Below, in pieces: positions 26,114-40,088 of a stretch of 64,000 nucleotides of DNA (the stretch's first letter is position 1; each line of letters starts with the position of its first letter). Under the pieces are notes generated by a model. That model worked only from the letters and a program-made list of their open reading frames with translations. It was not told the origin of the DNA and searched no databases. Location of the stretch: NCBI GenBank assembly GCA_021788105.1, contig JAJYKZ010000001.1, positions 19,333 to 83,332 of the forward strand, written 5' to 3'. The position numbers and the translations under genes were made by a program. Origin of the DNA: a bacterium. Lineage in GTDB: Bacteria > Patescibacteriota > Minisyncoccia > Moranbacterales > UBA2206.

Positions 26114-26157
26114 AGTTTTTTAATTTTAAGTTGTTGCACTATAAATTATATAACTAT

Positions 26158-27102
26158 TTACAAAGTTGTGATAGGCCGAGACTGAGTAATATAAAATTTT
26201 CCTTTTTCCAATGCCCACTCAATATCTTGCGGTTTTTTGTAATGCTTCTCGATATTTAAACAAATCTTAGCCATAGCTTTAATTTGAGTGTCAGTCAATT
26301 TCTGCTTTTCCTGTTTTGAAATTGGAACTTTAGTTTCCACAATACCCTTCGCACCATTCTTCACAATCATCATTTCCTGCTGAGAAATATTTTTATCTAA
26401 AATAGAATTATCTTGCTTACGAACAATATAAGTATCAGGGGTTATTTTTCCGCCCACAATCGCCTCTCCCAATCCATATCCTGCTTCAATTACCATTTGT
26501 TTCCGATCGCGTGTCACCGGATGAGCTGTAAAAGAAATTCCAGAAATTTCCGATTGGACCATTTTTTGAACAACAACAGCGACAGAAACTTTTTGATCAT
26601 GCAGTTTTTTCTCAAACCGATAAAAAATTGCCCGGGGAGTAAAAAGCGATGACCAGCAGAGTTTGACCGACTCCAATAAATTTTTCTTAGTAACATTCAA
26701 ATAAGTTTCCAATTCACCGGCCCAAGAAGCCACCGACGAGTCTTCTGCCGTAGCAGATGAGCGAACAGCTACCAAAGGAGCTTTCAGAATTGAAAATTCT
26801 TTTGTTATTTCCTGCGCAATATCTTTGGGAAATTTTGCGTCCAAAATCAAATCTCTAATTTTCTCCGAAGCTTTCTCAACTGAATTGATGTTATCCGGTT
26901 TTACCTTTTTTATCACAGCTTCTATTTCCACATCTAAATCAGTTTCTTCTAAAAATCTATCAAAAGCCGATGCCAGCACAACAAAACCCGGCGGCACCGG
27001 AATTCCCGCCTTGGTCATTTCGCCAAGCGATGCACCTTTTCCTCCCGCAATGTCGACGTTTTTATAGGTCAGTTGTTTGAATGTTTTGATAAATTCAGGC
27101 AT
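26158..27102 (-). CDS. Stand-alone ATP-grasp nucleotide-binding protein (PPDK_N-like)
   Basis: GGKGASLGEM, VAVRSSATAEDSSVASWAGELETYLNV, VAVVVQKMVQSEISGISFT, DIEWA. No His domain or TIM barrel follows. Confidence 0.75.
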   Translation of the reverse strand: MPEFIKTFKQLTYKNVDIAGGKGASLGEMTKAGIPVPPGFVVLASAFDRFLEETDLDVEIEAVIKKVKPDNINSVEKASEKIRDLILDAKFPKDIAQEITKEFSILKAPLVAVRSSATAEDSSVASWAGELETYLNVTKKNLLESVKLCWSSLFTPRAIFYRFEKKLHDQKVSVAVVVQKMVQSEISGISFTAHPVTRDRKQMVIEAGYGLGEAIVGGKITPDTYIVRKQDNSILDKNISQQEMMIVKNGAKGIVETKVPISKQEKQKLTDTQIKAMAKICLNIEKHYKKPQDIEWALEKGKFYITQSRPITTL

Positions 27103-27114
27103 ACAAATTTAAAC

Positions 27115-28488
27115 TTAATTTTTTAAAATCTTCACAATACCTTTATTTGCATCAACCTCGACCAAATCACCATCTTTCAAAATTTTCGTTGCAATTTTAG
27201 TTCCAATGATACAGGGCTTATTCCATTCCCTCGCAACAATTGCTGCATGACAAGTTATACCCCCTTCGTCCGTTACAAATGCCACTGCTTTTTTCATGCA
27301 TGGCATAAAGTCAGGAGTAGTCATAGTTGTTATTAAAATATCTCCTTCTGAAACCTTACTTTGCTCACTGGCCTTTAAAATAATCCTTACCGTACCTTTA
27401 ATTTTTCCGCTGCAAGCTACCATTCCTTTCAATTCTTTAATATCGTGAATTGCAGATATGTTAAGTGAATTTATTTTTTGAATTAATTTTTTTCCAAATA
27501 ATAATTCAATTTTATTATCATGAAGCAAAAAACCATGACCCAATTTCCTTTCTTTTATAATTTTATTCGAAACTTTTATATTTTTTTCAAACAAATCTTT
27601 TATTTCACTCAAAAGATAGTATCCTAGGTCATTTTCTTTTACTAAAAATTTCTTGCCTATTTCATTCCAAAGAGTCTCTAGGTAAAATAGAGCTTCGTAA
27701 AGCTTTTCTGTTCGATAATTTCTAAAATAAACGAATTCTTTCATTAAATTCATGAACTCCTCTTCTTTTTTGTCAAATTTAAATCTATTCTTTATTGTTC
27801 CGTATTTTTTATTGTTCAAATCTAATTCCTCTAGCTTTTTTTTGAAAAAATTAAAATCATAACCTTTCGAGAACGGCTCCCTATACCCTAAAAAAGAATA
27901 TTTATTTAAATGTTTTTTTAGAGCTTGATCTAAATCTACTTCAGAATAATTATGATTTTTAATTCTTCTAAGATCAATTTCCTCCAAAACAGGAGAATTC
28001 ATTTTTTCAGGCTTGGAAATATTTATAAGAATACCATTCATTTCGCTTTCTTCAATCCCCTTTTTCTTTAAAATATCAATCAGTTTATCTTCAATAGATT
28101 TTGCTAATGGGTGTGTTTGTGGTAAAAAAACTAATAAATTCTTCAGAAGCTCTACGCTAATCCAAAAATCATTTTCAAGCTTACTAAGATTAGTTTTATT
28201 AATTTTTAATTTTCGCGAAAAACTTATTAACTTTTCTCCATTAACATATCCATTCTTGGTAAAATCCCAGAAAAAATTAAGCGGTTTGTTTTGATACTTT
28301 TTAGCAACAGCTTCCATCCAATTCATATCAAAATAAAAATCACCATCAATAATTTCTAAATTTTTAACATAGTCATTAAATTTAGCAATTTTTTTAAATC
28401 TCTTTTCGTCATTCCAAGACCTGATTAAAATATCATCTGTCAAAACAGCGTGCTTTCGTGATAATAATTTTTGAAAATTTGGTTTCAT
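27115..28488 (-). CDS. Paralog A: divergent N-terminal domain plus C-terminal PEP-utilizers mobile (phosphohistidine swivel) domain
   Basis: C-terminus ...LKGMVACSGKIKGTVRII...[48 protein letters not shown]...[19 protein letters not shown]. Confidence 0.7.
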   Translation of the reverse strand: MKPNFQKLLSRKHAVLTDDILIRSWNDEKRFKKIAKFNDYVKNLEIIDGDFYFDMNWMEAVAKKYQNKPLNFFWDFTKNGYVNGEKLISFSRKLKINKTNLSKLENDFWISVELLKNLLVFLPQTHPLAKSIEDKLIDILKKKGIEESEMNGILINISKPEKMNSPVLEEIDLRRIKNHNYSEVDLDQALKKHLNKYSFLGYREPFSKGYDFNFFKKKLEELDLNNKKYGTIKNRFKFDKKEEEFMNLMKEFVYFRNYRTEKLYEALFYLETLWNEIGKKFLVKENDLGYYLLSEIKDLFEKNIKVSNKIIKERKLGHGFLLHDNKIELLFGKKLIQKINSLNISAIHDIKELKGMVACSGKIKGTVRIILKASEQSKVSEGDILITTMTTPDFMPCMKKAVAFVTDEGGITCHAAIVAREWNKPCIIGTKIATKILKDGDLVEVDANKGIVKILKN

Positions 28489-28495
28489 GTTTTAC

Positions 28496-30058
28496 TTATT
28501 TTAATATCTTCACAACCCCCTTATTCGCATCCACCTCAACCAAATCGCCGGTTTTTATTGCCTTAGTCGCAATGTGTAGTCCAATGACACAAGGCTTATT
28601 CAATTCACGAGAAACTATAGCAGCATGTCCGGTAACGCCACCTTCATCACAAACCAGAGCCTTGCACAACCTAATAGCAGGCATATATGTAGGATGAGTT
28701 TGAGGCGCAACCAAAATACTTCCCTCCGGCATTTCATGAACTTTTTTAGAAACATCATCGCTCCAATAAAATACAAAGGCCTTTCCCCTAACGAATCCCG
28801 TGTTTCCAATTTCCCCCTTCATTTCTTTTAGTTTATCGTAATCTACGGCGCCTAAAATTTCAGCTTTTTTTTCTAGCGCTTCCTTGCCCCACCAAATATA
28901 ATCTTTACCTTCGTAATGTAAATATAATTCGGCTTCAGCTCTCCTTGCCAACTCCTCTTTTTCCACGATCATTTTCCCTTCCAAGGCACTGATCAATTCG
29001 TCCTTTGTCATACTCGATATCTCTTCATATGACAGAGCAAGCTCTTCTGAATATTTTTTTAAAATTAAAACAAGATAATAACCTATCCACCTCCAAAAAA
29101 ATCCTGATTTAAACCTATAAAAACCTACTTTAGAAATTTTTTGAGCAAGCCCCAAGACTTCTTCAGAAAATCCATACCTTTCAATGATCTCTTTCTTTGT
29201 TTTAACGGCATTTTCATATTGATTTAAAATATCTTGCCTTTTTCTCTTGTAATCAATATCATTTTTGAGGCTGGTTTTTAATAAAAAAATAAAGTGATCA
29301 ATGTCCCATGCGGGGGTCCTATCACTCGCCGGAATCAGTCTGTACCTTCGATAATGTTCTTTTAGTAAAACTAAAATCTCATTGTAATTATCAGAAAGCA
29401 ATCCTTGTGACAGATAATTAATATCTTTCTCATGGATAATATTTTTCGCTTCTATGACTATTTCTAACCAAGCCAATTCTTCATGAGTAAAGAAAGACTT
29501 TTCTTCTGGAATCGTTAAAGCTACAAATACTTCTTCAACTAACCTTTCATCTTTTAATATTTTTCTGATCTCGCTATAAAGCTGGTTTTTTAAAGCATCG
29601 GTTAATTGTGGTTGACTACATCGCATGAAAGATGCCAGCCTATATTCAATATCTATTAATGAAGGTATTAAAGAAATAATTTCGTTTTTAGAAAAGCTAT
29701 CAATCTTATCCTCCAATTTATATCTTTCCATTATTTTTTCAACTTCTTTACAATCATTGTCTATCATTGAATACCATCTGGCTAACCACTCTTCATCAAA
29801 AAAAATTTTCTTTCCATGTTCAGTAGCCCTTGCCATATCCTTATCAACATAATAACCCCCGTGGATCCCTCCAATTTCAGTCGAATCACTATACCAAAGA
29901 TAATAGTCATATTTAAAGCCGGTAATCTTATCCATCAAACTCCTTCCCCTTAAGAACGGACGGATAAAAAGCTGATATGCCAATAGGTGACCGAGATTGG
30001 GACCTTCATACATCAATTTCCAGTTTAATTTTTTCGGAATAGGGTTTTGTTGCGACAT
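28496..30058 (-). CDS. Paralog B: divergent N-terminal domain plus C-terminal phosphohistidine swivel domain
   Basis: C-terminus ...[27 protein letters not shown]...[17 protein letters not shown]. Confidence 0.7.
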   Translation of the reverse strand: MSQQNPIPKKLNWKLMYEGPNLGHLLAYQLFIRPFLRGRSLMDKITGFKYDYYLWYSDSTEIGGIHGGYYVDKDMARATEHGKKIFFDEEWLARWYSMIDNDCKEVEKIMERYKLEDKIDSFSKNEIISLIPSLIDIEYRLASFMRCSQPQLTDALKNQLYSEIRKILKDERLVEEVFVALTIPEEKSFFTHEELAWLEIVIEAKNIIHEKDINYLSQGLLSDNYNEILVLLKEHYRRYRLIPASDRTPAWDIDHFIFLLKTSLKNDIDYKRKRQDILNQYENAVKTKKEIIERYGFSEEVLGLAQKISKVGFYRFKSGFFWRWIGYYLVLILKKYSEELALSYEEISSMTKDELISALEGKMIVEKEELARRAEAELYLHYEGKDYIWWGKEALEKKAEILGAVDYDKLKEMKGEIGNTGFVRGKAFVFYWSDDVSKKVHEMPEGSILVAPQTHPTYMPAIRLCKALVCDEGGVTGHAAIVSRELNKPCVIGLHIATKAIKTGDLVEVDANKGVVKILK

Positions 30059-30059
30059 T

Positions 30060-30890
30060 TTATAAAAATAAAGTGGTTATCGGTCTTGCTTGAGTTATGT
30101 AAATTATACCTCCTTCGATGGCCCATTCTATATCCATAGGCCTACCGTAATGCGCTTCGATGTCCAAAATATTCTCTAATAAAGATAGGAAATATTTTGT
30201 TGGCAATTTCTGTGCATTCCTCTTTTCTAAAGATACTTCCAATCTTTCATTTTCAAGCCTATCCTCATTAAAACATAATTTAAATTCTTGGTAGTTGATT
30301 TTTTTATCAATTATTTTTTTACTCTTTTTGTCGAAAATATATTTGTCCGGAGTAATAATTCCTGAAACCATATATTCCCCAAGACCAAAACCCGCTTCGA
30401 CCATAATCTCGTTTGCATTTTTGTTTATTGGATTATTGGAGAAAGCAATACCTGAAATTTCCGATTGTATCATTTTTTGGACGACCACTGCTATTTTTAT
30501 TTCCTCTGGGTTCACATGTTTTCCTTTACAATAATTAATTATTCTTTCACTATTTAATGAATTGTAACATTCTGATATTTTTTCAATCAGCTTATCTCTC
30601 GTCACATTCAAAAATGTATCAAACTGCCCTGCAAAGCTCGTATCAAACGCATCTTCTTTTGTTGCACTACTTCTTACAGCTACGGTTTTTATTTTTAGCT
30701 TATCAAAATTATTTAAAATTTCATTGGAAAATTCTTCTAAATTTTTTAAATCAATTTCCGTACTCAAAACAAAGCCTTCCGGGACATTAACATTTTTTAT
30801 GCCCTTAAGCTCACCAAGAGAAGAACCTTTCCCGCCAAAAAGTGCTACCTCACTCCTGGAAATCGATCTTAAAAACTTAATTTCCTCCAT
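30060..30890 (-). CDS. Second stand-alone ATP-grasp nucleotide-binding protein (PPDK_N-like)
   Basis: FGGKGSSLGEL, VAVRSSATKEDAFDTSFAGQFDTFLNV, AVVVQKMIQSEISGIAFS, DIEWA. Confidence 0.7.
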   Translation of the reverse strand: MEEIKFLRSISRSEVALFGGKGSSLGELKGIKNVNVPEGFVLSTEIDLKNLEEFSNEILNNFDKLKIKTVAVRSSATKEDAFDTSFAGQFDTFLNVTRDKLIEKISECYNSLNSERIINYCKGKHVNPEEIKIAVVVQKMIQSEISGIAFSNNPINKNANEIMVEAGFGLGEYMVSGIITPDKYIFDKKSKKIIDKKINYQEFKLCFNEDRLENERLEVSLEKRNAQKLPTKYFLSLLENILDIEAHYGRPMDIEWAIEGGIIYITQARPITTLFL

Positions 30891-31911
30891 TTCTTTTTCC
30901 GGAAATAACGTCTGCTATCGTTATTTCTTTTAGCAAATTACCGCTTTTCGTAAATATATTTTTATCTGGTTCAACATCCAAATCATATTCTTTTCCTCTT
31001 AAACGAAATTTTATTGAAACTTTGCCATTTTTTTCTTTTCTTTTGATTGAAATGTTGACTGCCTCATTGGGCTCAAAAGCTCCTCCCATTTTTTCCAAAA
31101 TATCTGACCCGTCAGAACAAACCGGATCTTCCTCAATTTGATCTTGCAACAAATAAACGAGAAAAGGTTCGATAAATCCGGCATGATTGACGTCATATAC
31201 AAATACCTTAGAATCATTTTTTAACCTGTTTGAAGCTTCAACATATTTTTTAAAATGTTCTGTCATTCTTAATACAACTTCCAAAACAGAGATTCCGTCT
31301 TCCTTCACTTGTTTGTCTTTAAAATTTTTAATGATAGATTCTTCCTTATCAGAATTTTCTTTTGATCCATCAGTTTTATCAATGATTTTTTTCAAATAAT
31401 CGAGATCGTCCATCAAATATTTTATCCACAATGCAACTCCCGCGTTTTCTTTTTTCAATGACGAGCTGGCACTTTTTTCAGTAGCCTCTTTATATGCTTG
31501 TCGTATTTGCGGAGATATTAAATTAACATCTTTTGATTCACTTGATTCATTCATTATTTTTTTCACGATCACACCTTCTTTACTGATAACTCCCGTTGGC
31601 AGATCCCTGACTCGCAAATTGACTTTTTTCTTTTCGTCGTCCATAACAAAAGTGTCATTACTTTCAAAACCTTCTTCTATTTTCATTCCTGTATGAACAG
31701 CGCGTTCGATCGGAGTAGTTCTTACCGCAACAACATCATACCCGCTCAAATCCTTACCCTTTGCTAATTCGACAACTTTTTCAGGATTAGCTATCCTTGA
31801 TGCATTAAAAGAACCTTTCTCGCCATGACGAGCAAGTTCCACATCTATTTCTACATTGTTTCCAAACTCTCCCGATTCCTTTTGCTCAATTCTTTCAAAT
31901 GGATTTTTCAT
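30877..31911 (-). CDS. Possible histidine-phosphatase-superfamily protein (RHG motif)
   Basis: VELARHGEKGSFN resembles the PGM-family RHGE signature. Otherwise a divergent K/E-rich sequence. Confidence 0.4.
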   Translation of the reverse strand: MKNPFERIEQKESGEFGNNVEIDVELARHGEKGSFNASRIANPEKVVELAKGKDLSGYDVVAVRTTPIERAVHTGMKIEEGFESNDTFVMDDEKKKVNLRVRDLPTGVISKEGVIVKKIMNESSESKDVNLISPQIRQAYKEATEKSASSSLKKENAGVALWIKYLMDDLDYLKKIIDKTDGSKENSDKEESIIKNFKDKQVKEDGISVLEVVLRMTEHFKKYVEASNRLKNDSKVFVYDVNHAGFIEPFLVYLLQDQIEEDPVCSDGSDILEKMGGAFEPNEAVNISIKRKEKNGKVSIKFRLRGKEYDLDVEPDKNIFTKSGNLLKEITIADVISGKRNGGN

Positions 31912-31921
31912 ATTTTTAATT

Positions 31922-32209
31922 TTAATTATTATAACTTTTTAAAATCTTCACAATCCCCTTATTTGCATCCACTTCAACCAAATCACCATCTTTCAAAACT
32001 TTAGTGGCAATCCTTGTTCCAATTATACATGGCTTTTTTAGTTCGCGCGAGACAATTGCCGCATGACAAGTTATACCGCCTTCGTCGGCTGACTGATTCA
32101 GTTTCTTATTTTTAGATTTTATGAACTTAACCAGTCCTTGCGCCCAAAATCCTTCCAGTATTAAGCTAAGGTCCCGTTCATATTCTTTTGTCAGATGAAT
32201 TTTTGGCAT
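31922..32209 (-). pseudogene. Remnant of a paralog: isolated phosphohistidine swivel domain (95 aa) lacking the N-terminal domain
   Basis: ...[51 protein letters not shown] is near-identical to the paralog C-termini. The upstream region is non-homologous. Confidence 0.5.
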
Positions 32210-32211
32210 GA

Positions 32212-32676
32212 TTAAATTTTTTCCGATATCATTTCCAAAACCGCCTGAGTCGCTTCTGCCCCTTTGTTATTTTTCCCTCGCGACCGGTCTTGGGCTTGTT
32301 TGAGATTATTTGTTGTTATCACTCCAAATCCGATTGGAATATCATATTTCAGCATTACATCCATAATTCCCCGCGCGGCTTCATTAGATACAAAATAGTA
32401 ATGATCAGTGCCACCCTTGATTACGCAACCTAAAGCAATCAGTGCATCAAACTTTTTGGTTTTAGCTGCTTTTTGACAAGCCAATGGAATTTCAAAAGCG
32501 CCTGGAACCCAAACTGTTTTGATGTTGGATTTTTTAACTTTATTTTTTTCCAGAACATCCATCGTGCCCTGAAGCATCCCTCCGGTGATGTCGGAATTAA
32601 ATTTTGAAACCACGATTCCGATTTTCAATTTGCTCCCGTCGATTGTTTCTTTTTTTTGGTTATTTTTTCTTTGCAT
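32212..32676 (-). CDS. ribH: 6,7-dimethyl-8-ribityllumazine synthase
   Basis: [14 protein letters not shown]...[12 protein letters not shown]...[15 protein letters not shown]. Confidence 0.85.
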
Positions 32677-33263
32677 TATTTTGTTCTTAATAACTTATTT
32701 AAATATTTCGCCAAAACGTCTGTTTCGATATTGACATAATTTCCAACAGAAATTTTTCCCAAATTGGTATTATCCAAAGTATAACTCACTAGAGAAACCG
32801 TAAACCAATCTTTGCCAGTATCAACAACGGTGAGACTAATGCCGTCAATTGCAATTGATCCTTTTTCCGCCACAAACTTCATAAACTCTTTCGAAATTTT
32901 AATTTTAATAATCTCAGATTCCTTCACCTTTTGGATTTCAATTACCTCTCCGGTCGTATCCACATGACCTTGCACAATGTGCCCATCTAGAAGATCGCTC
33001 ATTTTCAAACTTTTTTCTAAATTAACCGCTGTTCCTTTTTGAAAATTGCCTGCAGTAGTTTTTTTAATTGTTTCCGGCATATATTCAACTTCAAAAATGC
33101 TTTTGGAAAAATTTTTAACAGTCGAACAGACCCCATTTATGGCAATGCTTTCACCTTTCCAAACTTTCCAACCTTTGGGAATTTTTATAGACACAAAAAA
33201 ACTCCCTTTTTTTTCGGATATTTTTTCCACCGCTGAAACTTTTTGAATAATTCCTGTAAACAT
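32676..33263 (-). CDS. ribE: Riboflavin synthase alpha subunit
   Basis: MFTGIIQKV...GESIAINGVCSTV duplicated lumazine-binding motif. Confidence 0.85.
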   Translation of the reverse strand: MFTGIIQKVSAVEKISEKKGSFFVSIKIPKGWKVWKGESIAINGVCSTVKNFSKSIFEVEYMPETIKKTTAGNFQKGTAVNLEKSLKMSDLLDGHIVQGHVDTTGEVIEIQKVKESEIIKIKISKEFMKFVAEKGSIAIDGISLTVVDTGKDWFTVSLVSYTLDNTNLGKISVGNYVNIETDVLAKYLNKLLRTK

Positions 33264-33278
33264 TTTGTAATTTGAAAC

Positions 33279-33608
33279 TTAAAATTTTAAATTTGAAATT
33301 TTTTTAATATCTTTAGCAATTTGTTCTTTTAGTTTTTCCTCGCTTTCAAATTTCATGACATCTCTGATTTTTTGACCGAGCTCTATCCGTATTTCCATGC
33401 CGTAAATATCCTGGTTAAAATTAAATAAATAAGCTTCTAAAAGATTTTGGAAAACAAATATAGCTGCCGCATATTCTTTTCCTTCAACAATCACACTTCC
33501 TCCATAAATTCCACTAGCAATATCTTCCTTCAGTTCTACATTGGCCGTTGGAAATCCCAGTTCCCTGCCTCTTGCTTTACCCTTAATGACTTTACCAGAT
33601 ATTTTCAT
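33279..33608 (-). CDS. Riboflavin kinase (stand-alone flavokinase domain)
   Basis: GKARGRELGFPTANV is the riboflavin kinase signature. Confidence 0.7.
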   Translation of the reverse strand: MKISGKVIKGKARGRELGFPTANVELKEDIASGIYGGSVIVEGKEYAAAIFVFQNLLEAYLFNFNQDIYGMEIRIELGQKIRDVMKFESEEKLKEQIAKDIKKISNLKF

Positions 33609-33610
33609 TT

Positions 33611-35054
33611 TTAATTTTTCTTTAGAATTTTTACGATCCCTTTATTAGCATCAACTTCCACTAAATCACCGTCTTTTAAAACTTTGGTAGCAACCCTTGT
33701 TCCAATTATACCTGGCTCACCAAATTCCCGCGAGACAATCGCTGCGTGACAAGTAATGCCTCCGTCATCAGTAACAATGGCAGCTGCTTTTTTCATTCCA
33801 AGAAGATGTTCCGGCCGAGTCATGGGCGCAACCAAAATATCGCCCTCCTTCACTTTATCAATATTTTTCGCCGACATGATAATTTTTATTCTCCCTTTCG
33901 CAATTCCAAGCGATGCCACCATGCCTTTTATTTCCTTAACATTGCCCGTTTCGATATGGGAAACTTTCCTGGTAAATTTTTCAGATTCATATCCAGAAAT
34001 GATGCTAACTATTTCACCATTTCGATATACAAATAGAGATGATTTTTTTCTTTCTTCCAAGTCTGCTATATTAAATTTCCCTTCCAGAATACCTTTTATT
34101 TCTTTGGAATTTATATAACGCAATATATTATAACTAATTCCAGTGCGTTTTGAAATTTCCGCTAAAATTTTTGATTGCAAAGTCACAAAGGTTAAAGTGT
34201 ATATCTTTCTCTGATCCTGCCATTTTACAAATATTTCCGTAAGCTTGGAAATTGCTTTGATTTCCGGATTAAATTTATATTTTTTAAATAATTTTTCTTT
34301 GGCTTCTTTATTGCTTTTTAAAATATTATTCCTTGTTTTTTTCGGTTTTGATTTTTGCAAGTTCTTTTTTTGCATCATGTCGGGTGTATTTTTTGTATCC
34401 GGCATAGCTTGATTTTATCCAGGCATATTTTAAAATATGAAACTTCAATGCCGTTTCAAGATCTTTTCCTTTCTTGCTCTTCAACTTTTTCAAATCGGTT
34501 ATTTCTTCGTTTATAAAAGAAGGATTGACTGGTGCGCTCAGAACAGAAAATATTTCAGGATAGTTATTAATTTTGTTTTTTTCACAAAAATCTTTGATCA
34601 AACCATCAAATCTTTTGTCAGCATAAAACATAAAACCATCAAGAAACCCGGGCATAGAAATTTTGCGGTAATATTTATAAATTTCTTCAGCCCAACCAAT
34701 CAAAACTTCATTATCCAAACCGGAGATATCAGCTTCGTACCGATCGTAAAATTTGGCCATCATTGAATCAAAATTTTCCAACCAGCTTCTGTGCAGATTG
34801 GTGATGACTTTTTCATTTTTTAAAAAAATTTTTACTATAGCAGCACCTATTAATTGATGATCTGAATATAGAGACATCCAGTCGCCCTCCGACTCCTTAT
34901 AATAGCAAAGATTCTTTTTATAAACCGGGATCGTACTATTGTATAATTTTTTGGTGAAACCGTGAGCGGTCATTTCCGTAAAAGCCGGACAACCGTCATA
35001 ATGTTCGATATTCCACTTTTCTTTGGCTAAATTTTTCAGGTTTATTTTTTTCAT
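33611..35054 (-). pseudogene. Paralog C split into two ORFs (34326..35054 N-part; 33611..34405 C-part with swivel domain) by a frameshift at an A7/T7 run
   Basis: The two ORFs overlap by 80 nt and together align over the full length of paralogs D and E. Deleting one A in the run at 34336..34342 joins ...KIKTEK to TRNNILKSNKEAKEK... Confidence 0.6.
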
Positions 35055-35056
35055 TT

Positions 35057-36529
35057 TTATTTAACAACTTTAACAGTTCCCTTATTTACATCTAACTCAA
35101 CCAGATCTCCATCTTTTATTAATTGAGTAGCGGTTTTGGTACCAATTATACACGGCTTTCCCATTTCGCGCGATACAATGGCTGCATGACAAGCAATTCC
35201 TCCCTCATCAGTAATTATGGCCTTGGCAATTCTCATCAAAGGAACCCATTCCGGACGAGTCATTGAAGTCACCAAAATCTCTCCATTCTTAAAAAAGTCT
35301 TTTTTTGTATTCATTACAACTTTTGCACGTCCAATAATTTTTTGTTCCATTCCTTTACTGGCAACCATTCCTTTTAAATCTCTATTTTTTATTTCTGTAG
35401 CAGCTTTCAATATTTCCTTAGCATCTTTTCCAAAAAACACTACCGGTTTTTTCTTTCTTTCAAAATCAAGGAAAACTCCTTTTCTCCTCGATCGGATTTC
35501 TTTTTCCTCTATTCTTTTTCCGGTTCGAATAAAATTTTCAATTTCAACTACCGTGCACATATTCAAATATTCATAATCAATATCAAATTTTCTGCAAATA
35601 GCTTCAAAAAAATTCCAAAGGTAGTGCAAATGTTCCAACATTCCCTTTTTGCGTTGGTCAATCCAATATATGACCTTGCTGGCAAAATAAAGATCTCTCT
35701 TATCTTCACTAGACAATTTCAAATCTTTGTATTTTTTTAAATGCACTTTTCCGCTACTTTTCAAGTTTTTTAATTCTTTCTCTATTTCTTCCAAAGAATG
35801 TTTTTTTAATTCGTTTTTAATATCTTTCAATACGGTCTCCTGATTAATTATCGTCGTTCGGCAAAAATCAGTTTTTATCCAATAATAATTATATGAATAA
35901 TTATTAATTTTATTTTTAATTTCTCTGTTATTGGAATATTCTATGACAATTTCAAAAAAAGCCTCCCTCTCTTTGCTGAATACAGATTTTTTCTCAGGAT
36001 GAGCCAACTCATGAACAATTTCTCTAGCTGACTCAATTTCCATTTTATGCCGTTTTGCAAATCTTGGAACAATAACAGTTTCAATAACATGGCCTTTTTC
36101 TTCTCCAAAAGAAGCATATTGCCACCATTTGAATGCCGTTTCAGTTAGCTGTTTATACAAATCAACGATTTCGTTATTGCTGAAATCTTCGATTTTCTTA
36201 TTACTAATTCCCTTCCAAATATTTTCAAATTTATCGATAATTTTTTGATGATTTTTTATTTTTTGGTCTAAAGATTTTGGATTTTTCAGATAGTCATTCC
36301 AAATCTTTAATCCGATTTTATCAATATTGTCCTTACTTATGAATTGATAATGCGGCTCATAATTATCATATCCCAAATAGCAAAAAATTGGAGAAAAATT
36401 TACTTTATGAACAGTATTGGAATTAGCATATGCGCCGTAAGCCAGATCGCAAATAAACAAAAAAGCGTGAGCTCGCTGTATATCCAACTCATTCTCTTTT
36501 AGATAGGTTACGACTTCTTTTCTGTTCAT
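35057..36529 (-). CDS. Paralog D: divergent N-terminal domain plus C-terminal phosphohistidine swivel domain
   Basis: ...LKGMVASKGMEQKIIGRAKVV...[48 protein letters not shown]...DGDLVELDVNKGTVKVVK. Confidence 0.7.
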   Translation of the reverse strand: MNRKEVVTYLKENELDIQRAHAFLFICDLAYGAYANSNTVHKVNFSPIFCYLGYDNYEPHYQFISKDNIDKIGLKIWNDYLKNPKSLDQKIKNHQKIIDKFENIWKGISNKKIEDFSNNEIVDLYKQLTETAFKWWQYASFGEEKGHVIETVIVPRFAKRHKMEIESAREIVHELAHPEKKSVFSKEREAFFEIVIEYSNNREIKNKINNYSYNYYWIKTDFCRTTIINQETVLKDIKNELKKHSLEEIEKELKNLKSSGKVHLKKYKDLKLSSEDKRDLYFASKVIYWIDQRKKGMLEHLHYLWNFFEAICRKFDIDYEYLNMCTVVEIENFIRTGKRIEEKEIRSRRKGVFLDFERKKKPVVFFGKDAKEILKAATEIKNRDLKGMVASKGMEQKIIGRAKVVMNTKKDFFKNGEILVTSMTRPEWVPLMRIAKAIITDEGGIACHAAIVSREMGKPCIIGTKTATQLIKDGDLVELDVNKGTVKVVK

Positions 36530-37989
36530 TTATTTAAAATTTTAATTATTCCTTTATTGGCATCTACCTCCACAGTATCGCCGTCTTTTAAAACTTTAGT
36601 GGCAATTTTTGTTCCGACTATTCCCGGAATTCCAAGCTCTCTGGAAACTATTGCTGCATGACAAGTCATACCGCCCTCATCTGTAACAACGGCACAAGAT
36701 TTTTTGAGTGCTACAATAAAGTCAGGCGTGGTCATTGTGGTTACAAGCACTTCTCCATTTTTTATTTTATCCATATTTTTTGATCCGATAATGATTCTAA
36801 CCCGACCCTTGACCACTCCGCGATTCACAACCAATCCCTTGATTTCTTTAATATCTTTTTTTATCTTATTGTTTAAATAAGGAGTGGCTATTTTCTTCGC
36901 CTTCGATCCCGAAACATATCTTATTTCTTCCGGCGGACGATATGCGGCGACAAAATCATCCTTTCTTGATTCTATTTCACTTCCGCTTAACTTTTTATTC
37001 TTCATAACCAAATCTTCCAATTCCGCTATAACATAAAAATGAAGATCGTCAAAATCCAATTCGAACCGCCTTGAAATTTCTTTCAAGAATAAGTCAACAA
37101 TATAATTATTTTTAAAAATATAAGACTTTCTAAAATCCTGCCACCAAATACAAAAAGATAACCTTTGACTTATTTTTAAAGTTTCATACGGCAAATTAAA
37201 TTCCCGAATAACTTTTTTCTTGTGAATAATCGCTTCTTTTTTTATTTTTTCTATTTCCTCAATTTTTCTTTTAGCATCTTTCATAGAAATGACACCCAAT
37301 CTTTTTCTAAAATAACTGACCGGTAATATTCTTGTGTTATGATAACTGTTCAGCATCCAGAAATATTTTTGCTGATGCGATTTCAGTTTTTCTTCCAAGG
37401 ATTTTTTATGTTTTATATTTTTCAGAGATAACAGGTCTATTTCTTCTTTTTGATAGAAAGAAAAATCCTCCGGAGCCGAAAGCCTTTCCAATGCGTAATG
37501 AAAATCTTCTTCTTTTAAAAATTTTTGTAAAATATCACTCAATATTTTTTCCCCTCCCCAATTCGCAACTTCCGGCAAAGATCCGATATTCCAAAATTCT
37601 TTCCCAGCCAAACTATTCCAATTTTGAAATAATTGAAAAAATTCTTTGTCAGATAGTAATTTCAGATCGGTTTTCGAGATTTTTTCCGCCGAAGCTTCGA
37701 AATTTTTTATAAGCTTTTCCCACTTCGCATAATTCAATTTAAATAACTTATCATCCAAAATATGCTTTTTAAAAAGAGCTTCGCCATGAAAACGGAGCTC
37801 TTCATAATCAACAATAACGGTTGCCATTTCTTTGGCATAAAAGACTAGAGCAGCCGGCCAACCCGGAGAAAAATATTTGGCAAATTCAAAAAATCCTCCA
37901 AACCAATAATCTGGGAAAATCGGACGACCATCAGAAGGTCCCCAACGAAAAAGTTCTTTTTTTGGATTAATTAAAGTTTTAATTTCCAT
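36526..37989 (-). CDS. Paralog E: divergent N-terminal domain plus C-terminal phosphohistidine swivel domain
   Basis: ...IKGLVVNRGVVKGRVRII...[48 protein letters not shown]...[19 protein letters not shown]. Confidence 0.7.
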   Translation of the reverse strand: MEIKTLINPKKELFRWGPSDGRPIFPDYWFGGFFEFAKYFSPGWPAALVFYAKEMATVIVDYEELRFHGEALFKKHILDDKLFKLNYAKWEKLIKNFEASAEKISKTDLKLLSDKEFFQLFQNWNSLAGKEFWNIGSLPEVANWGGEKILSDILQKFLKEEDFHYALERLSAPEDFSFYQKEEIDLLSLKNIKHKKSLEEKLKSHQQKYFWMLNSYHNTRILPVSYFRKRLGVISMKDAKRKIEEIEKIKKEAIIHKKKVIREFNLPYETLKISQRLSFCIWWQDFRKSYIFKNNYIVDLFLKEISRRFELDFDDLHFYVIAELEDLVMKNKKLSGSEIESRKDDFVAAYRPPEEIRYVSGSKAKKIATPYLNNKIKKDIKEIKGLVVNRGVVKGRVRIIIGSKNMDKIKNGEVLVTTMTTPDFIVALKKSCAVVTDEGGMTCHAAIVSRELGIPGIVGTKIATKVLKDGDTVEVDANKGIIKILNK

Positions 37990-38596
37990 TTTCTGATGAA
38001 TATTTTTTGTCTATCCACTCCTTTGCAATTTCCTTAAACTCCTTATAAAAAAATAATTTTAGCATATTTTTTAAAACTGTTAGCAACTCTTTTTCATTTG
38101 GGTAAATTTTTTTTATATTTTTTATTCTTTTTTCATTATATCTATCTAAAGAATCTATATCGTGAAAAATTCTCTTATTTTCAGTGTTGTAAATTTTTTT
38201 AAGATCCTCGCCGGTTTTTAGCTGATCATAATCGTGTACGCTAATCATGTCAACAATTTCTTTTCTCTTCTTATTTTCGTAGCCAACCGACTTCAAGATA
38301 TCATCGGCAATCTTGGCACCTGTAAGCATATGCACCAGCTTTCCATTGGTAATCTTTTCAGGTCCGGTGACATATTTAAAATGTTCCGGCAAAATTGCAG
38401 AATGTCCAATATCATGCATCATGGCTACTGGGATTAAAATTTCATAATCTAGCTTAAGTTTTCCTTTGTAATTCAAAATTACTTTAATAACCTCTTCCGC
38501 GTGTTCAAAATCTCCCAATCTTCCTTTCTTCAAAAGCGGTCTGCACCTTTTCCAAATCTTTAGATATTTGCTAGATAGTTCCATATTATTTTTCAA
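37979..38596 (-). CDS. HD-domain phosphohydrolase
   Basis: H...AMMHDIGHS...D is the HD motif. Confidence 0.6.
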   Translation of the reverse strand: MKNNMELSSKYLKIWKRCRPLLKKGRLGDFEHAEEVIKVILNYKGKLKLDYEILIPVAMMHDIGHSAILPEHFKYVTGPEKITNGKLVHMLTGAKIADDILKSVGYENKKRKEIVDMISVHDYDQLKTGEDLKKIYNTENKRIFHDIDSLDRYNEKRIKNIKKIYPNEKELLTVLKNMLKLFFYKEFKEIAKEWIDKKYSSENGN

Positions 38597-40078
38597 CTTT
38601 TATAACCTCTCCTTTTCCTGCATCTATCTCTAGCATATCGCCATCCAAAATGATCTTGGTAGCAATTTTTGTGCCTATCACACAGGGTTTTTTCATTTCC
38701 CTGGAAACAATCGCTGCATGAGAAGTTATGCCACCCTCATCGGTTACTATAGCTGCAGCTCTTTGCATAGCGATTATCAAATCCGGGTTGGTAGCTCGAC
38801 TTACCAAAATTTCACCCTTCTTAATTTTTCCTATTTCATTTCTCGAATTTATGATTCGAGCAATACCAGTGACCCTTCCGGCATACGCACAATTGCCTTT
38901 TATCACCTTTGTTACTGTTTCGATTTCGGGTTTAATAAATTTTGAATATTTTTTACTATCTCCAATCCTTATAATACTCACTGCATCAGATTCTACTACA
39001 GAAATGCACCCCTCACTAAAACGTGTCTCTATATTATTTCGCATTTTTCTAGTGAGCTTTCTAGGATCCGTCAAATATATTCTTATTTCATCTTTAGTTA
39101 TGAATCTTGTTTGTTCCAAAGAAAAACAGAGTCGATTTGATATTTCTTTTAAAATAGGTTCGAAACAATAATTAGAATAGATTAAGAATTCTTTCCGATA
39201 GCCTTTCAAAAAAATCATCACACCTATTTTATTTAACAAAGAAATAACATTATTATCCAGTCTTAACCTTTTTTGCAATTTCTTTTTCTTTTGTTCTATC
39301 TCTTTTTTATACGCCCTTATTTCTTTGATTTTTAAGACAGGATCCTTAATTATTTTTAAATTATTTTCTAAAATTTCAGTTATATCCTGTTTGCTCCATG
39401 CGGGTCCAATGTAATAATATGCCAACCATCCGAATTTTTTAAGATGATTTTCTAGAAGGCTAGCTATTTGCTTGTTTTTTTCCAATTTTTAATTCTTTTA
39501 TTCTGGATAACCGATTGAATTTTATATAATTCAAGCTCGTGTTCCCTTTGTTTAGTTTTTTCCTCCGGTGTAGTTAACACGCTCATATATTCTTTTATTC
39601 TTGGTTCTTCTCCGATCCGTTCTTTTATTTTTTTCTCCGCGATATCAAAAATAGAAACACTCCCCATATCGACAAGGTTGGGAATCCACGCGTACGCTCT
39701 TAAGTCAATCGTTATTTTTTCAAATTTATCATAATAGCTTACAAGTTGCTTGTTTGATAATTTTTTAGGATCAATTTTTAATAAACTGTCAGAAAATTTT
39801 TCCAACCCTTGGCAACGCTCTATCATCCCTTTTTTTATTTTGCGATAAAAATTATTATCATTAATCAATTTGCTTTGTGCAATGTCAGAAATATTCTTCC
39901 AAGACTTTTCATTTGCATACATTATCATATTAGTCTTGTCATAAAAACAAACAACCTGATCGCAACTTTTTCCCAAAAGTTTTCTCACAGATGAGGTGGC
40001 AGCCATATCCATCAAATAAATAGGAAAAAAACTCACATGTTTGCCTTCGAAAATTTTAATTAAACTTCCTTGATTCAT
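38586..40078 (-). pseudogene. Paralog F split into two ORFs (39464..40078 N-part; 38586..39485 C-part with canonical [13 protein letters not shown] swivel domain) by a frameshift at an A7/T7 run
   Basis: The ORFs overlap by 22 nt. Inserting one A in the run at 39475..39481 joins ...IKNWKK to NKQIASLLENH... The C-part begins with TTG only in the ORF track. Confidence 0.6.
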
Positions 40079-40088
40079 TTACAAGTAA

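What the first reader, a model, noticed from the sequence alone, without database searches (positions are those of the whole stretch)
26158..40078. 14 kb array encoding a split, expanded RPH/PpsA-type dikinase system: 2 stand-alone ATP-grasp proteins plus 6 paralogs of (variable domain + phosphohistidine swivel domain)
Seven genes or gene remnants end in the PEP-utilizers mobile His domain (GG-x-T-[C/S/G]-H-AAIV-[SA]-RE...P-x-[IV]-x-G). The ORFs are 27115..28488, 28496..30058, 31922..32209, 33611..35054, 35057..36529, 36526..37989 and 38586..40078. Each is preceded by a ~380 aa N-terminal region that lacks the PPDK_N motifs and lacks any PEP-binding TIM barrel. Two separate ~300 aa proteins (26158..27102, 30060..30890) carry only the ATP-binding PPDK_N domain (GGKG..LGE, RSSATxED..FAG, DIEWA). 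The order ATP-grasp / substrate-binding / C-terminal His domain is the architecture of rifampin phosphotransferase (RPH), not of PEP synthase or PPDK. The locus therefore looks like an RPH-like dikinase split into a shared ATP-binding subunit and a diversified set of substrate-binding/phosphocarrier subunits. An HD phosphohydrolase (37979..38596) and an RHG-motif histidine-phosphatase-like protein (30877..31911) lie within the array. These could reverse the modification. For a small, streamlined genome, six paralogs in one array is a large investment. The function could be antibiotic/xenobiotic phosphorylation or a protein or small-molecule phosphorelay. I know of no description of this split multi-paralog arrangement.
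Basis: partly seen in the sequence, partly recalled or inferred. Interest (0 to 1): 0.85.

Follow-up and report, generated by a model that had tools for sequence, protein, structure and literature searches.

The report
Multi-paralog split dikinase gene island
A 14-kb acquired island in a tiny-genome (Patescibacteria) bacterium encodes two stand-alone ATP-binding subunits and six diverged rifampin-phosphotransferase-like substrate/phosphohistidine subunits; such uncharacterised arrays turn out to be common in CPR bacteria and DPANN archaea, and their substrates are unknown.

Summary
On the minus strand, 26158-40078 encodes two PPDK_N-only ATP-grasp proteins and four intact, two frameshifted and one remnant gene of the form [quoted passage not shown]. 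It also encodes an HD hydrolase and a histidine-phosphatase-fold protein. A high-confidence model of one paralog matches rifampin phosphotransferase (RPH) over 409 residues, so the RPH-like split reading is supported. Split RPH-type dikinases are already described (HpeHI, CreHI, PpsAB; JBC 2025). The multi-paralog array is not peculiar to this genome. In 84 loci from Patescibacteria and DPANN archaea, 59 carry three or more paralogs (up to 13-16), usually with at most one ATP-grasp gene. Single polypeptides with one ATP-grasp plus 4-6 units also exist. Only one paralog type (H5) is a conserved orthologue; the rest are hyperdiverse. Phosphatases and phosphotransacylase-like genes recur inside arrays. 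In this genome the array, with an embedded riboflavin cassette, is a low-GC3 insertion exactly between trxA and trxB, which are adjacent in at least 13 relatives. Most likely one ATP-grasp "charger" phosphorylates many carrier/substrate modules that phosphorylate different small molecules. Substrates are unknown. I found no description of these arrays.

The parts
26158..27102 (-). A1: stand-alone ATP-grasp (PPDK_N) subunit, 314 aa. This is the conserved 'charger' type and the last gene of the island.
   Evidence: Pfam PPDK_N E 3e-106. It aligns to RPH-Lm residues 4-316 at E 5e-67, with the K22, R117, T136 and E297 equivalents present. It is 56-79% identical to stand-alone homologues in other arrays.
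27115..28488 (-). H1: RPH-like substrate domain + C-terminal swivel-His domain, 457 aa, intact.
   Evidence: PEP-utilizers E 1.3e-25. NCBIfam RPH-type models align over residues 240-455. The His motif is GGITCH. The best N-domain orthologue is 48% identical, in L058.
28496..30058 (-). H2: the most divergent paralog, 520 aa, intact.
   Evidence: PEP-utilizers E 1.2e-22. The His motif is GGVTGH. N-domain identity to anything in the 80 genome-scan loci is 23% or less. The R-K dyad is replaced by K-S.
30060..30890 (-). A2: second, shorter and divergent ATP-grasp subunit, 276 aa.
   Evidence: PPDK_N E 5.5e-71 in two stretches; it lacks about 40 aa of the N-lobe helical insert. It is 39% identical to A1 and has no close relative in the other loci. 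The GGKG, VAVRSSAT, DTFLNV and DIEWA motifs are visible in the translation.
30877..31911 (-). X: histidine-phosphatase-superfamily protein, 344 aa. It overlaps the A2 start by 14 nt.
31922..32209 (-). Hfrag: 95-aa remnant of a seventh paralog, keeping only the last 44 positions of the swivel domain.
   Evidence: PEP-utilizers positions 29-72 of 72, E 1.6e-14. Its last 51 aa are 92% identical to H3. The syntenic gene in L012 is a 351-aa truncated paralog.
32212..33608 (-). Riboflavin cassette inside the island: ribH 32212-32676, ribE 32676-33263, flavokinase 33279-33608.
   Evidence: Pfam DMRL_synthase, Lum_binding and Flavokinase. The cassette shares the island's low GC3 of 0.24-0.37. The same cassette sits inside the array of a Moranbacteria genome, L012.
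33611..35054 (-). H3: a paralog disrupted in the window by a frameshift (ORFs 33611-34405 and 34326-35054) but intact (480 aa) in two other assemblies.
   Evidence: All 5 differences between the window and L004 over 17 kb fall in this gene. The best orthologue N-domain is 55% identical, in L044.
35057..36529 (-). H4: paralog, 490 aa, intact.
   Evidence: PEP-utilizers E 2.2e-25. The His motif is GGIACH and the W-I-D-Q-R-K motif is present.
36526..37989 (-). H5: the conserved core paralog, 487 aa. Its orthologue is present once in each locus that holds a full-length copy.
   Evidence: Over 5,750 homologues, 42-59% identical across Patescibacteria and DPANN. One copy per locus in 72 loci. Model pLDDT 94, RPH-like. 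The invariant W283-Q284-D285-x-R287-K288 motif aligns with the RPH catalytic R666-E667-x-x-K670.
37979..38596 (-). HD-domain phosphohydrolase, about 201-205 aa, between H6 and H5.
   Evidence: Pfam HD E 1.5e-6. The order H6-type / HD / H5-type is conserved in L029; in L012 the HD gene likewise follows the H6-type gene, but further genes separate it from the H5-type copy. The HD proteins are 58-62% identical.
38586..40078 (-). H6: a paralog split by a frameshift at an A7 run (ORFs 38586-39485 and 39464-40078). It is the first gene of the island.
   Evidence: The frameshift is present in all three assemblies. Adding one A restores the frame. H6-type genes are intact in L012 (515 aa) and L029 (474 aa).
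26114..40088 (.). Limits of the compositional island: an insertion in the trxA|trxB spacer (trxB 25184-26113, trxA 40089-40403).
   Evidence: GC is 0.31-0.36 inside and 0.41-0.47 outside. GC3 is 0.24-0.37 inside and 0.46-0.56 in the flanks. trxA and trxB are adjacent, or separated only by a small ORF of about 110 aa, in at least 13 related metagenomic loci, and none of those has an array there.

Best explanation
The island encodes a one-to-many, two-component version of the rifampin-phosphotransferase (RPH) type of small-molecule dikinase.

Proposed mechanism:
1. A stand-alone ATP-grasp subunit (A1, perhaps also A2) binds ATP.
2. It transfers the beta-phosphate to the conserved histidine on the C-terminal swivel domain of any of the H subunits, releasing AMP and Pi.
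3. The phosphorylated swivel domain docks back on its own N-terminal helical RPH-like domain.
4. There a conserved acidic/Arg-Lys motif (WWQDxRK in H5) positions the phosphate for transfer to a bound small molecule.
5. The N-domains are only about 24% identical to one another, so each paralog should take a different substrate.
6. X (histidine-phosphatase fold) and HD hydrolyse the products or reset the phosphohistidine.

What is shown:
- the domain identities and the RPH-like fold
- the catalytic residues
- the recurrence of arrays and the natural fusions
- the insertion of the island between trxA and trxB

What is inferred:
- that A charges every H
- the direction of the reaction
- that the substrates are small molecules

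My guess for the substrate class is scavenged or endogenous metabolites carrying hydroxyl or carboxyl groups, in a phospho-metabolite network with phosphatases and phosphotransacylases. Antibiotics seem less likely, but the substrate class is the weakest step.
For: Fold and catalytic residues:
- The RPH catalytic block aligns with an invariant motif in 50 homologues. Mutagenesis in PMC4844700 shows R666 and E667 are needed for the second phosphotransfer.
- The catalytic His is present in all paralogs.
- A1 has the full set of RPH ATP-site residues.

Experimental precedent:
- HpeHI needs both components.
- The His mutant of HpeH is dead.
- HpeH alone transfers phosphate between substrates (PMC12167813).

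Natural (Rosetta-stone) fusions:
- L086, 793 aa: ATP-grasp + N-domain + swivel.
- L084, 2388 aa: one PPDK_N + 4 swivel units.
- P0136, 2648 aa: one PPDK_N + 6 swivel units.

Census of 84 loci:
- 353 H genes against 27 stand-alone ATP-grasp genes.
- 59 loci have three or more H genes.

Conservation gradient expected for a shared charger, a common docking domain and variable pockets:
- A1 type 56-79% identical
- swivel domain about 54% identical
- N-domain about 24% identical

Array-embedded accessory genes:
- HAD hydrolase (12 loci)
- His_Phos_1 (8 loci, plus X)
- HD
- acylphosphatase (5 loci)
- PTA_PTB (12 loci)
- a PTA_PTB-like family (16 loci)
- an SbnI/free-serine-kinase family (8 loci)
- a genuine H-PTA_PTB fusion (P0138)
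Against: - There are no biochemical data for any member of this family.
- 58 of 84 loci have no ATP-grasp gene within 10 kb. Pairing therefore cannot rest on adjacency alone, and some H proteins might use another phosphoryl donor.
- RPH Arg666 is Gln in H5. The motif is degenerate in H2, H1 and H6, so some paralogs may be inactive.
- Two of six paralogs are disrupted here, and 55 of 353 H genes elsewhere are shorter than 400 aa. This fits rapid turnover rather than housekeeping metabolism.
- The island is an accessory insertion at a site that holds a restriction-modification island in a relative. That favours a conflict or niche-specific role.
- The substrate class is a guess from gene context.
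Confidence: 0.6

Rival explanations
1. Same enzymology, but the array is a chemical-defence battery. Each paralog would inactivate a different antibiotic or xenobiotic by phosphorylation, as RPH does with rifamycins. This would protect an episymbiont exposed to host or community metabolites.
For: - RPH is the closest solved structure.
- The paralogs are hyperdiverse: 106 singletons among 295 N-domains at 35% identity.
- Pseudogenes and fragments are frequent.
- The island has low GC3 and is an accessory insertion.
- The same insertion site carries a type I R-M island in a relative.
Against: - Scores against the curated RPH models are 27-89 bits against cut-offs of 999-1700.
- Stogios et al. 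showed that distant clades of the superfamily do not confer rifampin resistance.
- The H5 type is a well-conserved single-copy orthologue across two domains of life, which is unusual for a drug-resistance gene.
- The embedded partners are metabolic (PTA_PTB, serine-kinase-like, HAD), not efflux or regulators typical of resistance loci.
- There are no PADLOC hits.
Confidence: 0.2
2. The H proteins work largely without the ATP-grasp subunit, as phosphohistidine-mediated transphosphorylases. They would move phosphate between small molecules, for example from acyl phosphates made by the associated phosphotransacylases.
For: - HpeH alone catalyses phosphotransfer from 4-phosphoacetophenone to acetovanillone.
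- 58 of 84 loci lack an ATP-grasp gene nearby.
- PTA_PTB and PTA_PTB-like genes are embedded in 12 and 16 loci.
- P0138 is a fusion of PTA_PTB with three swivel (PEP-utilizers) units.
- An acylphosphatase gene follows the A gene in several arrays.
Against: - This window has two ATP-grasp genes.
- The A1 type is more conserved than any H.
- Polyproteins join one ATP-grasp to several H units.
- ATP-grasp genes may simply lie outside the 10-kb flanks examined.
Confidence: 0.1
3. The paralogs are PigC/RedH-like ligases. Phosphorylation would activate a carbonyl for condensation, so the array would be a natural-product or cofactor assembly line rather than a set of kinases.
For: The NCBIfam PigC and RedH models align over up to 250 residues of H4 and H5, E 1e-20 to 1e-26. 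The same A + N-domain + swivel architecture is known for PigC (my own knowledge).
Against: - Scores of 57-92 bits are far below the cut-offs of 1300-1350.
- No other biosynthetic genes (NRPS, PKS, tailoring enzymes) occur in the window or in the 84 loci.
- CPR/DPANN genomes have little secondary metabolism (my own knowledge).
Confidence: 0.05
4. The swivel domains pass phosphate to proteins, as in a PTS enzyme I-like or regulatory phosphorelay, and the N-domains are protein-binding scaffolds.
Against: - The N-domain matches the RPH small-molecule-binding domain, not the EI HPr-binding domain.
- The catalytic acidic/Lys motif for transfer within the N-domain is conserved.
- No HPr-like or receiver proteins recur in the arrays.
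Confidence: 0.04

Closest known systems
Two-component small-molecule dikinases HpeHI, CreHI and PpsAB (phenylphosphate synthase); PMC12167813
   Same: - The ATP-grasp domain is on its own polypeptide of about 300-340 aa.
- The partner carries an RPH-type substrate domain followed by a C-terminal swivel-His domain.
- The dikinase chemistry passes through phosphohistidine.
- A phosphatase acts later in the Hpe pathway.
   Different: - The known systems are one-to-one pairs in aromatic-catabolism operons of Actinobacteria and Proteobacteria.
- Their partners are about 600 aa and about 45% identical to one another.
- Their regulatory Thr before the His is replaced.
- Here 1-2 ATP-grasp genes accompany 6 (elsewhere up to 13-16) H genes of about 480 aa.
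- The H genes keep the PEP-synthase-like GGxT[CS]HAAIV motif.
- The genes occur in CPR/DPANN genomes with no aromatic-catabolism genes.
- Polyprotein forms exist here.
Rifampin phosphotransferase RPH-Lm (PDB 5FBS, 5FBT, 5FBU, 5HV1)
   Different: - RPH is a single 867-aa chain; here the ATP-grasp domain is a separate gene.
- Identity is only 17-21%.
- Arg666 is replaced by Gln, with an Arg three residues later.
- Scores are far below the curated RPH thresholds.
- Conservation of the RIF-binding residues was not assessed.
PEP synthase (pyruvate, water dikinase) and PPDK
   Same: A1 and the swivel domains are closest in sequence to archaeal PEP synthase (8a8e: E 2e-74 for A1; E 3e-28 for the H5 sequence and 3e-40 for its family profile). 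The His motif is identical, including the regulatory Thr.
   Different: There is no PEP/pyruvate-binding TIM barrel anywhere in the island. The His domain is C-terminal, not central. Public annotations of the ATP-grasp genes as 'pyruvate, water dikinase' are therefore misleading.
Prodigiosin ligases PigC and RedH
   Same: They belong to the same superfamily and have the same domain order. NCBIfam models align across the C-terminal part of the N-domain plus the swivel domain.
   Different: They are single-chain enzymes of about 880 aa in pigment clusters that catalyse condensation. Scores here are far below the cut-offs.

Membership tests
RPH-type dikinase superfamily (ATP-grasp / RIF-BD-like domain / C-terminal swivel His) | The substrate domain has the RIF-binding-domain fold. 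| tested here: met
   [not shown]
RPH-type dikinase superfamily | A C-terminal swivel domain carries the phospho-carrier His. | tested here: met
   PF00391 lies at the C-terminus of all paralogs. The His is aligned in all seven, and H444 is invariant in 50 homologues.
RPH-type dikinase superfamily | The catalytic Arg-Glu...Lys block (RPH R666, E667, K670) is present. | tested here: inconclusive
   The block aligns with H5 Q284-D285-F-R287-K288. The acidic residue and the Lys are kept, and the Arg is displaced by three positions. It is invariant in the H5 family. It is degenerate in H1, H2 and H6.
RPH-type dikinase superfamily | The ATP-grasp domain is fused at the N-terminus of the same chain. 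| tested here: not met
   No PPDK_N hit occurs in any H protein. A1 and A2 are separate genes. Fused relatives exist elsewhere (L086).
Rifamycin-inactivating phosphotransferase (NCBIfam NF041857, NF000283) | The whole-protein score is above the curated cut-off. | tested here: not met
   H proteins score 27-89 bits and A1 scores 205-303 bits, against cut-offs of 999 and 1700.
Two-component small-molecule dikinases (HpeHI, CreHI, PpsAB) | A separate ATP-grasp component is paired with a component that has an RPH-like substrate domain and a swivel domain. | tested here: met
   The family definition comes from PMC12167813.
Two-component small-molecule dikinases (HpeHI, CreHI, PpsAB) | Close sequence kinship with HpeH, CreH and PpsA (about 45% pairwise identity, about 600 aa). 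| not tested
   I did not have those sequences to compare. The H proteins are 457-520 aa. They match the approximately 600-aa NCBIfam PRK08296 models only over the swivel domain, at 50-103 bits against cut-offs of 578-730. I could not confirm that those models represent HpeH or PpsA.
[quoted passage not shown]
   This needs enzyme assays.
PEP synthase / PPDK | A C-terminal PEP/pyruvate-binding TIM-barrel domain is present. | tested here: not met
   There is no such Pfam hit in any island protein. PEP synthase models match only the ATP-grasp or swivel parts, below the cut-offs.
Histidine phosphatase superfamily (protein X) | The fold is present, together with the catalytic RHG, a second Arg and a second His. 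| tested here: met
   [not shown]
HD phosphohydrolase (37979-38596) | The HD domain scores above the Pfam gathering threshold. | tested here: met
   PF01966 scores 28.9 bits against a cut-off of 22, and the MHDIGH motif is present. The substrate is unknown.

The most novel reading that the evidence does not exclude
CPR bacteria and DPANN archaea share an unrecognised, massively expanded modular dikinase system. One conserved ATP-grasp charger would serve a hypervariable, horizontally mobile battery of phosphohistidine carrier/substrate modules, as up to 13-16 genes per locus or 8 units in one polypeptide. The battery would act as a broad-spectrum device for phosphorylative capture of host-derived metabolites, or for neutralising host and community chemicals. 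On this reading it is a signature adaptation of the ultra-small episymbiotic lifestyle.
Probability: 0.3. Interest if true: 0.85.

Novelty: new variant of a known kind. Interest (0 to 1): 0.62.

Why it matters
- **Scale of the family.** It is very large: over 5,750 close homologues of one paralog, at least 555 species-level genome loci, and 8,355 cluster representatives at E <= 1e-30. It takes 14 kb here, in an organism whose relatives have genomes of about 1 Mb (my own knowledge). No member has a known substrate.
- **Shared between CPR and DPANN.** It is one of few gene systems shared and expanded in both CPR bacteria and DPANN archaea. It may therefore bear on how these symbionts obtain or handle small molecules.
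- **A new arrangement for swivel-domain enzymes.** One ATP-grasp serving many carriers, including polyproteins with 4-8 units, has not been described. It offers a natural toolkit of ATP-driven small-molecule kinases.
- **Annotation risk.** The stand-alone ATP-grasp genes are labelled 'pyruvate, water dikinase' and the H genes 'PEP-utilizing enzyme'. This can create false gluconeogenesis calls in metabolic reconstructions of CPR/DPANN genomes.

Tried and rejected
1. **Fusion of an H gene with UDP-GlcNAc 2-epimerase (P0055).** It was listed by the precomputed Pfam table. It is spurious: 26 bits against a cut-off of 30.6, and it overlaps the swivel domain. P0055 is simply two H units.
2. **Gene conversion or concerted evolution as the reason the C-termini look alike.** DNA identity among swivel regions is only 64-72%. 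Within-locus and between-locus protein identities are equal, 54% against 53%. The similarity therefore reflects purifying selection.
3. **Programmed frameshift in H6.** The A7 site is a poor -1 slippery site. H6-type genes in L012 and L029 are intact without it. Decay is the simpler reading.
4. **Frameshifts as pure assembly error.**
   - The H6 frameshift recurs in three assemblies, though these may share reads.
   - The H3 frameshift is specific to the window's assembly, so it may be a strain or consensus variant.
5. **A known anti-phage defence system.** There are no PADLOC hits.
6. **Phage-borne family.** The viral contig scan found only generic swivel domains.
7. **One conserved HD family always paired with H5.** The window-type HD occurs in only 3 loci. 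Other HD neighbours (L079, L088) belong to different subfamilies.
8. **ATP regeneration by running the reaction backwards from acyl phosphates.** By my own estimate from standard free energies this is about +20 kJ/mol uphill for a water dikinase, so I dropped it.
9. **Promoter and terminator scan.** Terminator-like sites are at chance level. Promoter-like hits exceed the shuffled expectation (80 against 55) but mark no operon boundary. The genes are packed with gaps from -14 to +15 nt inside the island.
10. **Low GC as an amino-acid composition effect.** GC3 is also 15-25 points lower than in the flanks.
11. **Literature searches for a prior description of the CPR/DPANN arrays.** They found none. 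The library holds open-access papers only.

Full report
**1. What is in the window**

Every gene from about 23.6 to 43.4 kb is on the minus strand and tightly packed. In transcription order the stretch reads:

| Gene | Coordinates | Note |
|---|---|---|
| trxA | 40089-40403 | flank |
| H6 | 38586-40078 | frameshifted |
| HD | 37979-38596 | |
| H5 | 36526-37989 | |
| H4 | 35057-36529 | |
| H3 | 33611-35054 | frameshifted in this assembly |
| flavokinase | 33279-33608 | |
| ribE | 32676-33263 | |
| ribH | 32212-32676 | |
| Hfrag | 31922-32209 | remnant |
| X | 30877-31911 | |
| A2 | 30060-30890 | |
| H2 | 28496-30058 | |
| H1 | 27115-28488 | |
| A1 | 26158-27102 | |
| trxB-like flavoprotein | 25184-26113 | flank |

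- Pfam assigns PPDK_N alone to A1 (E 3e-106) and A2 (E 5.5e-71).
- Pfam assigns PEP-utilizers alone, at the C-terminus, to each H protein.
- No PPDK_N and no PEP-binding barrel is found in the N-terminal regions of about 380 aa.
- The catalytic His is aligned in all seven copies.

**2. The two frameshifts**

- Two other public assemblies of the same organism (L004, L005) are 99.97% identical to the window.
- They carry an intact 480-aa H3. All five differences over 17 kb fall inside H3.
- The H6 frameshift, at an A7 run, is present in all three assemblies. One extra A would restore the frame.
- H6-type genes are intact in two related loci.
- I read H6 as a recent pseudogene and H3 as a strain or consensus variant.

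**3. What the proteins are**

*H5 and the H family*
- H5 was modelled with 50 homologues (pLDDT 94, pTM 0.91).
- Foldseek against the PDB puts the four RPH-Lm entries first, E 4e-15 to 6e-14.
- At sequence level, H5 residues 238-485 align with RPH 613-866.
- In that alignment the RPH catalytic block R666-E667-Y-P-K670 falls on H5 Q284-D285-F-R287-K288.
- Stogios et al. showed by mutagenesis that R666 and E667 are needed for the second phosphotransfer (PMC4844700).
- W283-Q284-D285 and R287-K288 are invariant in 50 homologues.
- The acidic residue and the Lys are kept, and the Arg is displaced by three positions.
- The R-K pair is kept in H3, H4, H5 and H6. H1 keeps the Arg, and H2 has K-S.

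*The ATP-grasp subunits*
- A1 aligns with the RPH ATP-grasp domain from residue 4 to 316 (E 5e-67).
- The equivalents of K22, R117, T136 and E297 are present.
- The same motifs can be read in A2, which lacks about 40 aa of a helical insert. Some archaeal homologues lack it too.

*X and HD*
- X has only 15 detectable homologues. R-H-G, a second Arg and a second His are invariant.
- HD passes the Pfam threshold.

**4. What is already known**

- Split RPH homologues are described. [quoted passage not shown]
- HpeI is the ATP-grasp subunit (crystal structure).
- HpeH has the RIF-binding-like and swivel domains.
- The conserved His is essential, and HpeH alone moves phosphate between substrates.
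- CreHI and PpsAB (phenylphosphate synthase) belong to the same subfamily (PMC12167813).
- Those systems are one-to-one pairs in aromatic catabolism.
- I found no paper on multi-paralog arrays or on this family in CPR/DPANN.
- Jaffe et al. 2020 note only that PEP synthase HMM hits in CPR needed secondary domain checks.

**5. The array is a general feature of CPR and DPANN genomes**

*Distribution*
- H5 has over 5,750 homologues of about 480 aa that carry PF00391 only. The named ones come from Patescibacteria and DPANN archaea.
- A scan of one genome per GTDB species found at least 555 loci.
- The best 80 are from Moran-, Kuenen-, Buchanan-, Uhr-, Magasanik-, Doudna-, Falkow-, Kerfeld- and Berkelbacteria, and from Woese-, Nano- and Micrarchaeota.
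- A few MAGs among them are titled Gammaproteobacteria or Methanosarcinales. These titles look like misnomers.

*Census of 84 loci with 10-kb flanks, using HMMs built from the window proteins*
- 353 H genes against 27 stand-alone ATP-grasp genes.
- 59 loci have three or more H genes, and the largest have 11 and 13-16.
- 26 loci include an ATP-grasp gene, usually at the downstream end of the array, as A1 is here.
- 55 H genes are shorter than 400 aa.

*Polyproteins*
- L086: 793 aa, ATP-grasp + N-domain + swivel.
- L084: 2388 aa, one PPDK_N + 4 swivel domains.
- P0136: 2648 aa, one PPDK_N + 6 swivel domains.
- L071: at least 2937 aa, 8 swivel domains.

These fusions are the best available evidence that one ATP-grasp serves several H units.

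**6. Pattern of conservation**

- A1-type proteins are 56-79% identical across arrays.
- Swivel domains average 54% identity and N-domains 24%.
- These values are the same within and between loci, so there is no concerted evolution.
- DNA identity of the swivel regions in the window is 64-72%.
- Clustering of N-domains shows one conserved orthogroup, the H5 type. It has one copy per locus in 72 loci and is 42-59% identical across the two domains of life.
- A second group occurs in 20 loci. The rest form a hyperdiverse cloud, with 106 singletons among 295 at 35% identity.
- In the window, H1, H3 and H4 have orthologues elsewhere (48%, 55% and 37% N-domain identity). H2 and H6 are nearly unique.
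- The H6-type gene followed by HD recurs in a Moranbacteria genome (L012) and in L029. In L029 the H5-type gene comes directly after HD, as in the window.
- L012 also has the riboflavin cassette inside its array.

**7. Genes that travel with the arrays**

Clustering all neighbours gave these recurrent families inside or at the edge of arrays:

| Family | Loci | Evidence |
|---|---|---|
| HAD hydrolase | 12 | Pfam |
| His_Phos_1 protein, about 336 aa, often next to the HAD gene | 8 | weakly related to X |
| PTA_PTB phosphotransacylase | 12, mostly archaeal | Pfam |
| PTA_PTB/MTH_231-like family | 16 | PDB 9nzy E 3e-21, 7vg9 E 4e-8 |
| SbnI/free-serine-kinase family | 8 | PDB 5uje E 1.6e-28 |
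| Acylphosphatase | 5 | Pfam |
| Hexapeptide transferase | 7 | Pfam |
| M29 peptidase-like protein | 6 | Pfam |
| TrmB regulators | 14, mostly archaeal | Pfam |
| Unassigned family of about 210 aa | 14 | no PDB match |

- P0138 is a genuine fusion of three H units with PTA_PTB.
- Single-copy H5-type genes have these neighbours:
  - BacA/UppP, overlapping upstream (L023).
  - HD proteins of other subfamilies (L079, L088).
  - Sugar-1-phosphate nucleotidyltransferases (L085, L088).
  - A His_Phos_1 protein (L089).
  - An archaeal mevalonate-pathway operon (L006).
- The common theme is small-molecule phosphoryl chemistry with phosphatases of several superfamilies.
- This argues for small-molecule substrates but does not identify them.

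**8. The island is an insertion**

- GC falls from 0.41-0.47 to 0.31-0.36 exactly between 26.1 and 40.1 kb.
- GC3 is 0.24-0.37 in every island gene, including the rib genes, against 0.46-0.56 in the flanks.
- A metagenome scan with the trxB-like protein found 27 related loci, 59-85% identical apart from one outlier at 44%.
- In at least 13 of them the backbone is uppS (often preceded by ispG) - membrane protein - trxA - trxB - malic enzyme. trxA and trxB are there separated by 16-25 nt or a small ORF.
- None has H or A genes at that position.
- In the window the island sits precisely in that spacer. I found no flanking repeat longer than 9 nt and no integrase.
- One relative (L182) carries LexA, a type I restriction-modification system and RecQ at the same junction.
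- The array is thus accessory DNA at a variable site.
- Array genes are also lower in GC than their flanks in 55 of 61 other loci, by 3.4 points on average.

**9. Mechanism and rivals**

- The best-supported reading is a one-to-many two-component dikinase.
  - A1 (and perhaps A2) charges the swivel His of each H from ATP.
  - Each H then phosphorylates its own small-molecule substrate.
  - X and HD hydrolyse the products or reset the carrier.
- I put 0.6 on this general mechanism.
- The substrate class is open.
  - Gene context and the conserved H5 orthologue favour metabolites.
  - Hyperdiversity, decay, mobility and the insertion site favour a chemical-defence role (0.2).
- Other rivals:
  - ATP-grasp-independent transphosphorylation from acyl phosphates (0.1).
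  - PigC-like ligation (0.05).
  - A protein phosphorelay (0.04).

**10. Verdict**

The claim of an undescribed split is not.
- What appears new is the one-to-many, array and polyprotein organisation of a distinct family of H proteins of about 480 aa. So is its expansion across both CPR and DPANN.
- It is a new variant of a known kind of enzyme system, with unknown substrates, and is moderately to highly interesting.

Noticed in passing
window 25184-26113 and 40089-40403; loci L172-L198: The thioredoxin gene and the thioredoxin-reductase-like gene are adjacent in at least 13 related genomes but 14 kb apart here. In relative L182 the same spacer holds LexA, a type I R-M system and RecQ. The trxA|trxB junction therefore looks like a recurrent insertion site.
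   Followed up: partly
[not shown]
   Followed up: partly
window 33712-34330: All five differences (4 SNPs and 1 indel) between the window and two other assemblies of the same organism over 17 kb fall inside H3. Three SNPs lie within 11 nt at the 3' end. This could be strain heterogeneity or a consensus artefact in a repeated gene family.
   Followed up: partly
L071 1-8811; L084 2750-9913; P0136, P0137, P0139: There are giant single ORFs with 4-8 H units. Some carry one PPDK_N domain, at the N-terminus or internally. L071 runs off its contig end at 2937 aa.
   Followed up: partly
L008 15895-17354; L054, L055, L056: In several arrays the N-domain and the swivel domain lie on adjacent, overlapping ORFs (for example 350 aa + 136 aa with a 4-nt overlap, seen in two assemblies). 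This could be a frameshift or a genuine three-component split.
   Followed up: no
L006 3868-13525: In a DPANN archaeon the single H5-type gene sits between the UbiD-type decarboxylase and the AcnX dehydratase genes of the archaeal mevalonate pathway. A GHMP kinase, an amino-acid-kinase-fold gene (likely IPK) and a UbiX-like flavoprotein are nearby.
   Followed up: no
L079 8026-13258: An H5-type gene and an HD gene lie between dnaK and dnaJ in an archaeal MAG, in the position where grpE often sits.
   Followed up: no
L090 52-2664: The eRF1 gene next to the H gene carries an intein with a LAGLIDADG endonuclease and an HTH domain.
   Followed up: no
L008 2224-2514 and 18704-19012: Two small 23S_rRNA_IVP/bAvd-like four-helix-bundle genes flank the Buchananbacteria array. 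bAvd is an accessory protein of diversity-generating retroelements. No reverse transcriptase was looked for.
   Followed up: no
(source annotations): Public sources name the stand-alone ATP-grasp proteins 'pyruvate, water dikinase' and the H proteins 'PEP-utilizing enzyme' or 'phosphoenolpyruvate synthase/pyruvate phosphate dikinase'. The precomputed Pfam tables list a sub-threshold Epimerase_2 hit that overlaps the swivel domain. Both could mislead metabolic reconstructions.
   Followed up: yes
L029, L036, L045, L056, L067, L078; L028, L038, L043, L049, L050, L077: Third-party ('TPA_asm') MAGs titled 'uncultured Gammaproteobacteria' or 'uncultured Methanosarcinales' carry arrays. For example, the L029 ATP-grasp is 71% identical to A1, and its flanking genes look like CPR/DPANN. 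The organism names appear unreliable.
   Followed up: no
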